Source: Escherichia coli (GTDB lineage Bacteria; Pseudomonadota; Gammaproteobacteria; Enterobacterales; Enterobacteriaceae). Taken from it: DNA of 64,000 nt. Positions within the stretch are counted from its first letter, which is position 1. Every line of letters starts with the position of its first letter. The DNA is taken from assembly GCF_048403405.1 (NCBI RefSeq), contig NZ_CP183129.1; one strand, written 5' to 3'. This document shows, one piece after another, positions 3,001 to 6,000 of this stretch. A program made the position numbers.

Positions 3001-6000
3001 CGACAATGGTAGTGCAGATAACATAATTCATGAGCAGTTTCTCTTTATGTTTGCGATACTACACATGCTACCTTCTGATTGGTAGGCTTGCAAGATGGAT
3101 TTATTTAAAATAAGAGGGATGATTTGTATCAAATTGTTTTGTATTTTTGTGTTTTGTATCACTGAGGTGAAGTTGTAAGATCTGGCCCTCTGCGAGGTTG
3201 GCTCTGTCGAAAGGAACAGGTGACGAGAGTTAACATCGTTGCCTTGGCTGCATGGGGGATATGTAGCTACCCCCTGATATTTCCGCCACGGAAGCCAATA
3301 TGAACAACAATAACAATACGCCTCGTTTCCAGTATGCTTCATGTCGGATATTTTGTAAGCGCTATGTACTTCCCGGGACGCTTATCTTTTAGCCGTAGCT
3401 GGTAGTGCAATAAAAGCCTGGCAGCAATCCAGGCCTCTACGTTCTAAGAATCAACTGTCAGTGCAGAGGAATGCGCACGACGCTCTCGTTGTTATTGGCT
3501 TTTGCCGTCGCACCGTCGTTTTTCACGGTGACAAACAGCGCGTGCGCTTTGCTATCCGTCTTATATCACTGGTGCTGACAATGTGGATGAGGTCGCCTTT
3601 AAAAAAGGCCATCGTTATATAACGGTGATCTCCGATCGCGATGGTCGTGCGCTGGCCTTAACGGACGATTGTGGCACAGAGAGCCTCGCCGGCTATCTTC
3701 GCACGCTTACTGACGAGCAGTTGCTGGCTATCAAAACGCTCTCAATGGACATGAATGCAGGCTATATAAGAGCAGCGCGTATCCACTTACCCTGTGCGGT
3801 TGAGAAAATCGCCTTCGACCGCTTCCATGTAGCAAAGCAACTTGGCGAAGTGGTTGATAAAACCCGTCAGAATGAACATCCGCACCTCCCTGTTGAAAGT
3901 TGGCGTCAGGCAAAGGGGGCCCGCTTCCTGTGGCAGTACAGCGATAAATGGATGACCAAATCCAGGCAGGAAAAGCTGATATGGCTGCGTGCACAGATGA
4001 AGCTGACAAGCCAGTGCTGGGCGCTGAAAGAGCTGGCAAAGGATATCTGGAACAGGCCATGGAGTGAGGAAAGACGTAATGACTGGGAGAGATGGCTGGC
4101 TCTGGCGGCCAACAGTGACGTTCCTATGATGAAAAACGCCGCGAAAACGATAGGAAAAAGGCTTTACGGGATCCTGAATGCCATGTGTCTCAAACGGAAA
4201 CGCGGAGGCGCTTAACAGTAAGATCAGGCTACTGAGGATAAAAGCCAGGGGATACCGAAATCGGGAGCGCTTTAAGCTGGGCGTGATGTTCCACTACGGG
4301 AAACTGAATATGGCGTTCTGAGCCTTCCCATCATGATCAGGGAAAACCCATGTATCATCAGGTTATTATGTGAGCTGGTAAATCAGATTTTGCATGGACT
4401 GAAATCATGCTGTTATTTAGGGATAAAGAACCGGCTTTTTGTCCCGCCCCCTCGCCATTAATGAGAAAAAGAATGGAATGCTCCCTCTGAGGAGAAGGGC
4501 AGTAGAAAAAAGAACCCGCCAGCAAAAATATTGGGGATGAACAGCTTTCGCTACTCAGATTGCTGGCGGGTATAGTTCCTCATGAAATAAAAATACTACG
4601 TAGTCTTTTTAATGCAAATGATAATCATTGTCAATTGTTTGTGCGTGTTTTCTTCATACATGATTGGTAGTAAAGGTGATTCAGGCTATCAGTTTTTGCT
4701 GATGATCTTTTTATCTATAGAAAACATCAGCCAAGCTGGTTGGTTCAGTAACGCTTTCATCTTTGAGCATTTTATAAAAAATTCTTGAATTGTTAAAATA
4801 GATTAAAGTCTGGTAACAGCAAAAGTTAAACGAGAAATCAAAAGGAGGTCCCAAATCTGAAAATGAAGCATCTGCGTGATGATGTTGCAGCGGGACGTCG
4901 TCGGCTGTATATCAGAGCAATCTGTCCATCCCTGCGTGAAGCCCCGTTACTTTATTCGTACCCCTTATAATGGGGTGTTAGCCAGCCAGACCCGGCATGA
5001 TTACTGTGAACCGCCCCGGGAATCCTGGAGACTAAACTCCCTGAGAAAGAGGTAAACAGGATGACTAAAAATACACGTTTTTCCCCCGAAGTCCGTCAAC
5101 GGGCAGTTCGTATGGTTCTGGAAAGTCAGGACGAATATGACTCACAAAGGGCGGCAATTTGTTCCATTGCTCCAAAGACTGGCTGTACGCCAGAGACTCT
5201 GCGTGTCTGGATTCGCCAGCATGAGCGGGATACCGGGGGCGGTGATGGTGGGCTCACCACCGCTGAACGTCAGCGTCTGAAAGAGCTGGAACGTGAAAAT
5301 CGTGAACTGCGCCGCAGTAACGATATCCTTCGCCAGGCTTCCGCTTATTTTGCGAAGGCGGAGTTCGACCGCCTCTGGAAAAAATAATGCCACTGCTGGA
5401 TAAGCTGCGTGAGCAGTACGGGGTCGGACCGGTATGCAGTGAACTGCATATTGCCCCGTCAACGTATTACCATTGTCAGCAGCAGAGACATCATCCTGAT
5501 AAACGCAGTGCCCGTGCGCAGCGCGATGACTGGCTGAAGAAAGAGATACAGCGCGTATACGATGAAAATCATCAGGTGTACGGTGTGCGTAAAGTCTGGC
5601 GTCAGTTGTTACGGGAAGGAATCAGGGTGGCCAGATGTACAGTGGCGCGCCTCATGGCGGTTATGGGACTTGCCGGTGTTCTCCGGGGTAAAAAGGTCCG
5701 CACTACGTCAACCGGAAAACCGTTGCTGCAGGTGACCGCGTAAACCGTCAGTTCGTGGCAGAACGTCCTGACCAGCTGTGGGTGGCTGATTTTAATTACG
5801 TCAGCACATGGCAGGGCTTCGTCTATGTGGCGTTCATCATTGATGTGTTTGCCGGATACATCGTGGGGTGGTGGGTCTCATCGTCTATGGAAACGACATT
5901 CATGCTGGATGCGCTGGAGCAGGCGTTGTGGGCCCGCCGTCCGTCCGGCACCATCCATCACAGCGATAAAGGCTCTCAGTATGTGTCACTGGCCTATATG

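What the first reader, a model, noticed from the sequence alone, without database searches (positions are those of the whole stretch)
5371..5390. A-rich overlap at the IS629-like orfA/orfB junction
The orfA stop and orfB start overlap within ggaaaaaataatg, an A6 tract where a programmed -1 frameshift typical of IS3 elements could produce a fused OrfAB. Because orfB is broken downstream, any fusion protein would be truncated.
Basis: inference. Interest (0 to 1): 0.2.

Follow-up and report, generated by a model that had tools for sequence, protein, structure and literature searches.

The report
IS629-like frameshift site sits upstream

Summary
The sequence is as described. A6 lies at 5379-5384, the orfA stop TAA at 5385-5387 and the orfB ATG at 5387-5389, with orfB in the -1 frame. 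orfB is broken by a 1-nt deletion at 5705/5706.

The element (5007-6315) is an IS3-family, IS51-group copy, 96% identical to IS1203. Identical copies sit beside the pap operon of uropathogenic E. coli.

The programmed -1 site of this group is probably not the A6 run. Rfam's ALIL frameshift pseudoknot matches 5342-5458 at 120.9 bits. Its stem-loop 1 (5357-5373) starts 5 nt after an in-frame U_UUU tetramer (5348-5351).

- U_UUY at that position is present in 15/15 aligned relatives and 82/84 distinct elements from diverse genomes. In some it is extended to a U_UUU_UUY heptamer.
- An A-run of 5 or more at the orfA stop occurs in only 3/84.
- RefSeq's named IS1203 transposase places the shift inside TTTTG.
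- The A6 is only an A_AAA tetramer, with no stimulatory structure at working distance.

It may be a minor second site. That possibility rests on my unverified memory of Chen & Hu 2006.

What is conserved at the junction itself is the stop/start overlap. Either way this copy yields only a 227-aa product without the catalytic domain. This is known biology of low interest.

The parts
5007..5031 (+). Left terminal inverted repeat (IRL), begins 5'-TG
   Evidence: 25-nt arms 5007-5031 and 6291-6315, 92% complementary. One search shows the ends align with 1310-bp relatives.
5061..5387 (+). orfA (108 aa, HTH_Tnp_1), stop TAA at 5385-5387
   Evidence: ORF. PF01527, 47.5 bits.
5348..5351 (+). In-frame U_UUU slippery tetramer (TTTTG motif 5348-5352; frame-0 codons UAU UUU GCG): the family-conserved candidate -1 shift site
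   Evidence: in frame. Present in 15/15 aligned relatives and 82/84 distinct elements in the census. RefSeq fusion junctions YF-C/G-EGG lie here.
5342..5458 (+). ALIL pseudoknot recoding element (Rfam RF01497), full-length match
   Evidence: 120.9 bits against gathering score 50, E=1.5e-32. RefSeq annotates 'AL1L pseudoknot' on the identical copy.
5357..5373 (+). Stem-loop 1: 5-bp GC stem (5357-5361 with 5369-5373) and apical loop AGUUCGA (5362-5368); starts 5 nt after the tetramer
   Evidence: 98.7% of cells paired across 15 sequences.
5379..5384 (+). In frame it is only an A_AAA tetramer (G_AAA_AAA) and it lies in the linker between SL1 and SL2
   Evidence: An A-run of 5 or more at this place in only 3/84 relatives. 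Alleles A6-TGA, A6-TAA and A5G-TGA exist in E. coli.
5385..5389 (+). Stop/start overlap TAATG (orfA TAA and orfB ATG share A5387)
   Evidence: A -1-frame ATG overlapping or abutting the orfA stop occurs in 13/15 relatives.
5419..5458 (+). Stem-loop 2. Its 5' internal loop UCGGAC (5424-5429) pairs with the SL1 apical loop GUUCGA (5363-5368) to form the pseudoknot
   Evidence: Pseudoknot helix 92.2% paired, with a C-G to U-A change on both sides in the E. coli clade.
5387..5743 (+). orfB N-terminal fragment (118 aa, HTH_21), ends at premature TAA 5741-5743
   Evidence: PF13276, 69.7 bits.
5705..5706 (+). Site of the inactivating 1-nt deletion (one C of ACC missing)
   Evidence: alignment column 700. 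RefSeq calls the identical copy 'frameshifted'.
5755..6273 (+). orfB C-terminal fragment (rve/DDE catalytic core), now out of frame with the N-terminal part
   Evidence: PF00665, 87 bits.
6291..6315 (+). Right terminal inverted repeat (IRR), ends CA-3'

Best explanation
Window 5007-6315 is a defective copy of an IS3-family, IS51-group insertion sequence, an IS629/IS1203/IS3411 isoform. Its recoding signal is the one already described for this group. Ribosomes translating orfA would slip -1 on the in-frame U_UUU tetramer at 5348-5351: tRNA-Phe moves from UUU 5349-5351 to UUU 5348-5350, and the next codon read is UGC. The slip would be stimulated by the ALIL pseudoknot that starts 5 nt downstream. 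In that pseudoknot the SL1 (5357-5373) apical loop pairs with the internal loop of SL2 (5419-5458). The A6 run at 5379-5384 lies in the linker between the two stem-loops. It encodes the last two lysines of OrfA, and the neighbouring TAATG is the orfA-stop/orfB-start overlap. That overlap is conserved in the family and is the kind of arrangement that lets OrfB be made by termination-reinitiation coupling. At most the A-run is a weak secondary slip site. Because one C is missing at 5705/5706, any fusion from this copy stops at 5741-5743. The product is 227 aa with both HTH domains and no DDE domain, so this copy cannot supply transposase. Shown here: all sequence features, the Rfam match, the conservation, the covariation and the deletion. 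Inferred: that slippage occurs at U_UUU, that OrfB is made by coupling, and that the truncated product is made at all.
For: ALIL RF01497 matches 5342-5458 at 120.9 bits against gathering score 50. RefSeq annotates the same feature on identical copies. The Atkins 2016 review says the IS3411-type ALIL has stem 1 positioned close 3' of the shift site and stem-loop 2 a further 44-104 nt 3'. Here the spacer is 5 nt and the SL1-SL2 linker is 45 nt. IS3411 and IS1203 are IS629 isoforms (PMC3271280). U_UUY is in frame at the same column in 15/15 relatives from 9 genera. In Comamonas and four Acinetobacter elements it is a U_UUU_UUY heptamer. In a census seeded only on the SL1 core, 82/84 distinct orfA-type regions have U_UUY there, 11 have the heptamer, and the -1 frame is open across the region in 80/84. 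Chance occurrences of the same 18-mer in unrelated genes have no U-run. The structure is 90.1% paired against 33-47% in slid controls, and the pseudoknot helix is 92% paired with one compensatory pair. U_UU.U and U_UU.C are the second and third best tetramers with a downstream pseudoknot, and stimulators start 4-10 nt after the motif (PMC4066793). RefSeq 'IS3-like element IS1203 family transposase' proteins carry YFCEGG or YFGEGG junctions, which place the shift inside TTTTG. The deletion is shown and the domain content.
Against: No experiment was run, and the two primary papers (Mazauric et al. 2008; Chen & Hu 2006) could not be read. The identity of the shift site therefore rests on a review, Rfam, annotation and conservation. 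An NCBI protein with the junction at the A-run also exists on 158 contigs, so annotators have used both. The curated IS3 profile barely distinguishes the two junction versions (370.7 against 366.3 bits). The U_UUY and SL1 sequences also encode conserved residues (AYF, AELDR), so part of their conservation may be protein-level. From memory, Chen & Hu reported two functional -1 signals in IS629, which would make the A-run position a real second site in some isoforms.
Confidence: 0.8

Rival explanations
1. One reading: the A6 run at the orfA stop is a programmed -1 site. tRNA-Lys on AAA 5382-5384 slips to 5381-5383 while the UAA stop waits in the A site (a 'shifty stop'), giving OrfAB with the junction ...LWKK-IMPLL.... 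In the weak form it is a second site beside U_UUU. In the strong form it is the main site.
For: A_AAA is in frame, and the -1 frame is open from 5321 through orfB. A_AA.A is one of the six tetramers that work with a stimulator and is well represented among IS elements (PMC4066793). The A-run is kept in E. coli isoforms, and 1128 records carry the allele AAAAAG, which gives A_AAG, the best tetramer. An A-run-junction fusion protein is present in NCBI. My unverified recollection of the Chen & Hu 2006 abstract is that T4G and A4G both gave -1 frameshifting in IS629 and yielded two products.
Against: In this frame the motif is G_AAA_AAA, not a canonical X_XXZ_ZZN heptamer. A_AA.A is the weakest working tetramer, and tetramers without a stimulator are near background. 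There is no significant hairpin 4-10 nt downstream (-8.6 kcal/mol, z=-0.49). SL2 starts 35 nt away, and SL1 would already be unwound with the ribosome at this position. An A-run of 5 or more at this place occurs in only 3/84 related elements, all of which still need OrfAB. The A-run is polymorphic in E. coli.
Confidence: 0.22
2. The stop/start overlap (TAATG here, ATGA in most relatives) exists for translational coupling. Ribosomes finishing orfA reinitiate at the orfB AUG and make free OrfB, and the A-run is incidental coding sequence. This is compatible with the best explanation and concerns only what the flagged 13 nt are for.
For: A -1-frame ATG overlaps or abuts the orfA stop in 13/15 relatives even though the surrounding bases vary. 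There is only a weak GGA upstream of the ATG and no strong Shine-Dalgarno sequence. OrfB of IS629 is reported as a product that lowers transposition frequency (PMC5771124 citing Chen & Hu). From general knowledge, IS3 OrfB is made by ATGA coupling (Sekine et al. 1994; not checked here).
Against: Two relatives (E. coli RHB47 plasmid, Comamonas) lack the ATG. No expression data exist for this copy. Here OrfB would in any case be a 118-aa fragment.
Confidence: 0.5
3. Transcriptional slippage: RNA polymerase adds one A in the A6 run, so a fraction of the mRNAs carry orfA and orfB in one frame.
For: Homopolymeric A-runs are used this way by some IS elements (PMC1088944). One extra A would fuse the frames.
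Against: The slippage-prone length found in bacterial genomes is about nine, and that paper As 'non-slippery'. This run is six long. The run is absent from most relatives.
Confidence: 0.03

Closest known systems
IS3411 / IS629 / IS1203 recoding region with the ALIL pseudoknot (Rfam RF01497; Mazauric et al. 2008 J Biol Chem 283:20421)
   Same: The ALIL match is full-length. A U-run tetramer lies 5 nt before SL1. The SL1 loop is complementary to the SL2 internal loop. The SL1-SL2 linker is 45 nt. The element is 96.3% identical to named IS1203 copies, with the same IRs and the same orfA/orfB layout.
   Different: This copy has TAA instead of TGA as the orfA stop, which also turns the first of two orfB ATGs into ATA. 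It has a 1-nt deletion that truncates orfB, and it has no target-site duplication.
IS911 / IS150-type signal: A_AAA_AAG heptamer followed by a stem-loop
   Same: The family is IS3. orfA and orfB are in the 0 and -1 frames. An A-run lies near the end of orfA, and OrfAB is the transposase.
   Different: In this frame the A-run is G_AAA_AAA, so only a tetramer is available. No structure follows within 4-10 nt. The run is not conserved in the subgroup.
IS3 itself: A_AAG tetramer plus H-type pseudoknot, with an ATGA orfA/orfB overlap
   Same: Both use a tetramer rather than a heptamer, a downstream pseudoknot stimulator, and an overlapping stop/start at the orfA-orfB junction.
   Different: Here the tetramer is U_UUU. 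The pseudoknot is of the apical-loop/internal-loop type, built from two separate hairpins.

Membership tests
IS3 family, IS51 group (IS629/IS1203/IS3411 isoforms) | Terminal inverted repeats of about 25 bp with 5'-TG...CA-3' ends | tested here: met
   5007-5031 and 6291-6315, 25 nt, 92% complementary.
IS3 family, IS51 group (IS629/IS1203/IS3411 isoforms) | orfA (HTH) followed by orfB (HTH_21 + rve/DDE) in the -1 frame | tested here: met
   The fused sequence matches NF033516 IS3 family transposase.
IS3 family, IS51 group (IS629/IS1203/IS3411 isoforms) | High nucleotide identity to named copies | tested here: met
   96.3% over the full length to copies RefSeq names IS1203. Truncated copies named IS629 match at 95.3%.
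IS3 family, IS51 group (IS629/IS1203/IS3411 isoforms) | Intact transposase reading frames (a functional copy) | tested here: not met
   1-nt deletion at 5705/5706. RefSeq labels it 'frameshifted'.
IS3 family, IS51 group (IS629/IS1203/IS3411 isoforms) | Short direct target-site duplication flanking the element | tested here: not met
   The flanks are ...ATTACTG and GTAATAT.... No genome joins the two flanks.
ALIL pseudoknot frameshift stimulator (RF01497) | Covariance-model score above the curated gathering score | tested here: met
   120.9 bits against 50, model positions 1-117 of 117.
ALIL pseudoknot frameshift stimulator (RF01497) | Stem-loop 1 a few nucleotides 3' of an in-frame slippery motif | tested here: met
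   U_UUU at 5348-5351, SL1 from 5357, so a 5-nt spacer. This fits the 4-10 nt rule in PMC4066793.
ALIL pseudoknot frameshift stimulator (RF01497) | SL1 apical loop complementary to an internal loop of SL2 lying 44-104 nt 3' | tested here: met
   5363-5368 pairs with 5424-5429 over 6 bp (G-C, U-A, U-G, C-G, G-C, A-U). The linker is 45 nt. The helix is 92.2% paired across 15 sequences.
ALIL pseudoknot frameshift stimulator (RF01497) | Stimulates -1 frameshifting in vivo | not testable with these tools
   This needs a reporter assay.
Canonical heptamer -1 site at the A6 run (IS911-type) | In-frame X_XXZ_ZZN heptamer | tested here: not met
   The frame-0 codons are UGG AAA AAA UAA, so the motif is G_AAA_AAA. 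Only the tetramer A_AAA is in frame.
Canonical heptamer -1 site at the A6 run (IS911-type) | Stimulatory structure starting 4-10 nt downstream | tested here: not met
   the best local hairpin is -8.6 kcal/mol, z=-0.49. SL2 begins 35 nt after the run.
Canonical heptamer -1 site at the A6 run (IS911-type) | Conservation of the motif among relatives that need the fusion protein | tested here: not met
   The motif is present in 4/15 aligned sequences, all E. coli, and an A-run of 5 or more in 3/84.

The most novel reading that the evidence does not exclude
The A-run next to the orfA stop is a second -1 site specific to the Escherichia clade: A_AAA-UAA here, A_AAG-UGA in about a fifth of E. coli records. 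It would yield an OrfAB isoform with a different 11-residue linker (AKAEFDRLWKK instead of CEGGVRPPLEK). The three natural alleles would then tune the ratio of the two isoforms. In broken copies like this one, the resulting 227-aa DNA-binding fragments could act in trans on intact IS629-type copies in the same genome.
Probability: 0.2. Interest if true: 0.25.

Novelty: already known. Interest (0 to 1): 0.08.

Why it matters
It matters little beyond correct annotation. The finding shows that in IS629/IS1203/IS3411-type elements the orfA/orfB overlap is not the recoding site. The slip motif and its pseudoknot lie upstream and around the overlap, so fusion proteins should be modelled with the junction at TTTTG. 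It also confirms that the copy beside this pap operon is a dead element that cannot supply transposase.

Tried and rejected
- **Primary papers.** I tried to read Mazauric et al. 2008 and Chen & Hu 2006 by DOI and PubMed id, and Matsutani & Ohtsubo 1990 by PMC id. None is held.
- **Other literature.** Full-text searches for IS629 frameshifting found only two papers, and neither gives the site. The supplements of PMC4066793 do not mention IS3411 or IS629.
- **Close relatives.** E. coli copies are nearly invariant across the recoding region, so they cannot discriminate between the two sites.
- **Hairpin after the A6 run.** I looked for a stimulatory hairpin just 3' of the run and found only a weak, non-significant one.
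- **Profile scoring.** Scoring the two junction versions against NCBIfam NF033516 gave a difference of only 4.4 bits, which is not decisive.
- **Annotation census.** Both junction versions exist in NCBI, so annotation alone does not settle the matter.
- **Empty target site.** I searched for an empty site to date the insertion. None exists in 5,426 genomes.
- **Transcriptional slippage.** I rejected it because the run is too short.

Full report
**Observation.** The sequence at 5377-5389 reads ggaaaaaataatg. The A6 run is at 5379-5384. The TAA stop of orfA (5061-5387, 108 aa) is at 5385-5387. The ATG of orfB (5387-5743) is at 5387-5389, sharing A5387 with the stop. orfB is in the -1 frame relative to orfA. 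An A6 run alone is common in this window: 209 matches on both strands against about 103 expected. Only its position at the overlap is noteworthy.

**The element.**
- 25-nt inverted repeats at 5007-5031 and 6291-6315 delimit a 1309-bp element.
- OrfA carries HTH_Tnp_1. The orfB fragments carry HTH_21 and the rve/DDE core.
- Megablast finds it in 4,250 of 5,426 complete E. coli genomes.
- Copies 100% or 99.9% identical (DA33137, CFT073, ATCC 25922 and others) are annotated by RefSeq as 'IS3 family transposase, frameshifted' with an 'AL1L pseudoknot' feature. In DA33137, the one region fetched, the copy lies just upstream of papI/papB/papA.
- Full-length relatives are 1310 bp, and copies named IS1203 are 96.3% identical.
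- The window lacks one C between 5705 and 5706. orfB therefore stops at 5741-5743, and the catalytic core (5755-6273) is out of frame.
- There is no 3-bp target duplication, and no genome joins the two flanks.

**Where the recoding signal is.** Rfam's ALIL pseudoknot (RF01497) matches 5342-5458 over its full length at 120.9 bits, against a gathering score of 50.
- The model begins with CGCUUAUUUUGC.
- SL1 is 5357-5361 paired with 5369-5373, with apical loop AGUUCGA.
- SL2 is 5419-5458, with a 5' internal loop UCGGAC at 5424-5429.
- Thermodynamic folding recovers both hairpins.
- The SL1 loop GUUCGA (5363-5368) pairs with the SL2 internal loop over 6 bp.

[quoted passage not shown] Here the linker is 45 nt. 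The only in-frame slippery motif 5' of SL1 is U_UUU at 5348-5351 (codons UAU UUU GCG), 5 nt before the stem. That fits the 4-10 nt rule of Sharma et al. 2014. They rank U_UU.C and U_UU.U second and third among tetramers when a pseudoknot follows, and A_AA.A last of the six that work (PMC4066793). IS3411 and IS1203 are regarded as IS629 isoforms (PMC3271280).

**Comparative evidence.** Twelve distant relatives were fetched from plasmids of Pseudomonas (IS51), Stutzerimonas, Comamonas, Paracoccus, Sinorhizobium, Caballeronia, Acetobacter, Acinetobacter (ISAba19, ISAba34 and others) and E. coli. All carry a full-length, gap-free ALIL match.

In a frame-registered alignment of 15 sequences:
- U_UUU or U_UUC sits at the same column in all 15.
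- It is the only in-frame Z_ZZN motif that all 15 share.
- It is extended to a U_UUU_UUY heptamer in Comamonas and four Acinetobacter elements.

The ALIL pairs are 90.1% formed, against 33-47% when partners are slid. The pseudoknot helix is 92.2% formed, with a C-G to U-A change on both sides in the E. coli clade.

A census of species-representative genomes was seeded only on the 18-nt SL1 core, so it presupposes neither slip site. It gave 105 distinct sequences, of which 84 have an orfA-type stop:

| Feature | Count among the 84 |
|---|---|
| U_UUY at the fixed position | 82 |
| Full U_UUU_UUY heptamer | 11 |
| -1 frame open across the region | 80 |
| A-run of 5 or more near the orfA stop | 3 |

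Chance occurrences of the same 18-mer in unrelated high-GC genes have no U-run.

**Annotation evidence.** I built both possible fusions from intact copies and looked them up by exact sequence.
- The U-run junction (…AYFCEGGVRPPLEKMM…) is RefSeq's 'MULTISPECIES: IS3-like element IS1203 family transposase', seen on 394 contigs.
- Sister entries read …AYFGEGG…, which models the shift one base later but still inside TTTTG.
- An A-run junction version (…RLWKKMM…) also exists, on 158 contigs.
- For a second intact copy only the U-run version is on record.
- The curated IS3 profile scores the two at 370.7 and 366.3 bits.

Annotation therefore leans towards the U-run but is not unanimous, and it is not experimental evidence.

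**What the A-run is.**
- It lies in the linker between SL1 and SL2 and encodes the last two lysines of OrfA.
- In this frame it is G_AAA_AAA, not a canonical heptamer.
- No significant hairpin follows it (z=-0.49). SL2 begins 35 nt away, and with the ribosome on the A-run SL1 would already be unwound.
- It is polymorphic in E. coli. Exact 59-nt matches give 3193 records with A6-TGA, 1554 with A6-TAA (this allele) and 1128 with A5G-TGA.
- What is conserved at the junction is the stop/start overlap itself. A -1-frame ATG overlaps or abuts the orfA stop in 13 of 15 relatives.
- That arrangement fits termination-reinitiation coupling for free OrfB, a product reported to lower IS629 transposition (PMC5771124).
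- Transcriptional slippage is unlikely, because slippage-prone runs are about nine long (PMC1088944).

**Caveat.** I recall, but could not verify here, that Chen & Hu 2006 found two functional -1 signals in IS629 (T4G and A4G) and two fusion products. The A-run position may therefore be a real secondary site in some isoforms. In this window it is the weaker A_AAA form, followed by UAA.

**Consequence for this copy.** Whichever site is used, the fusion ends at 5741-5743. It is 227 aa with HTH_Tnp_1 and HTH_21 and no DDE domain. The copy cannot make transposase.

**Verdict.**
- The IS629-like assignment and the truncation are correct.
- The proposed location of the programmed frameshift is most likely wrong by 31 nt.
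- All of this is already-described biology, and the finding is of low interest.

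Noticed in passing
window 4722-4844 (+): Rfam STnc490 Hfq-binding sRNA match (65.5 bits, gathering score 56), about 160 nt upstream of the IS left end.
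   Followed up: no
window 6508-6686 (-): Rfam AS-pc02 ('antisense to pHK01_099') match, 58.6 bits against 40, between the IS right end and papI.
   Followed up: no
window 51772-51932 (+): Strong Rfam STAXI RNA match, 121.3 bits against 40.5.
   Followed up: no
window 3583-4321 (+): Remnant of an ISL3-family transposase gene. RefSeq calls it frameshifted and partial in the identical DA33137 region. With the broken IS3 copy, it makes the region upstream of pap a patch of dead IS elements.
   Followed up: no
window 4863-4970 (+): A 35-aa ORF abutting the IS left flank. RefSeq names it 'lysis system i-spanin subunit Rz' in some genomes and 'hypothetical protein' in others. The name looks doubtful for so short a fragment.
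   Followed up: no
window 5000-5006 and 6316-6322: There is no 3-bp target duplication (left flank ...ATTACTG, right flank GTAATAT...). The flanks contain a 5-nt inverted complement, ATTAC/GTAAT. None of 5,426 E. coli genomes has the two flanks joined, so the IS marks a junction of unrelated sequences.
   Followed up: partly
window 6837-8562: Start of a P-fimbrial operon: papI (6837-7070, -), a papB-like regulator (7475-7789) and a major fimbrial subunit (7963-8562). The window matches uropathogenic strains DA33137 (100%) and CFT073 (99.9%).
   Followed up: no
window 5379-5387; E. coli genomes: Three alleles at the orfA stop circulate in complete E. coli genomes: AAAAAATGA (3193 records), AAAAAATAA (1554) and AAAAAGTGA (1128). 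The TTTTG+SL1 part was the same in all three queries. The TAA allele also destroys the first of the two orfB ATGs.
   Followed up: partly
L002:255-1468 (E. coli S103EC): The closest full-length relative (98.6%) is also dead, but from a different lesion: an internal stop, CGA to TGA, at alignment column 1179.
   Followed up: no
L017:1582-1698 (E. coli RHB47 plasmid) and L008:1576-1692 (Comamonas): These two relatives have no ATG in the -1 frame at the orfA stop. Their orfB frame can apparently be reached only by frameshifting.
   Followed up: no
L023, L033, L044, L058 and others (genome contigs): The 18-nt SL1 core AGGCGGAGYTCGACCGCC also occurs in unrelated high-GC genes (it encodes EAELDR/EAEFDR) with no U-run upstream. 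This was a useful negative control, and a warning that the core alone is not diagnostic.
   Followed up: partly
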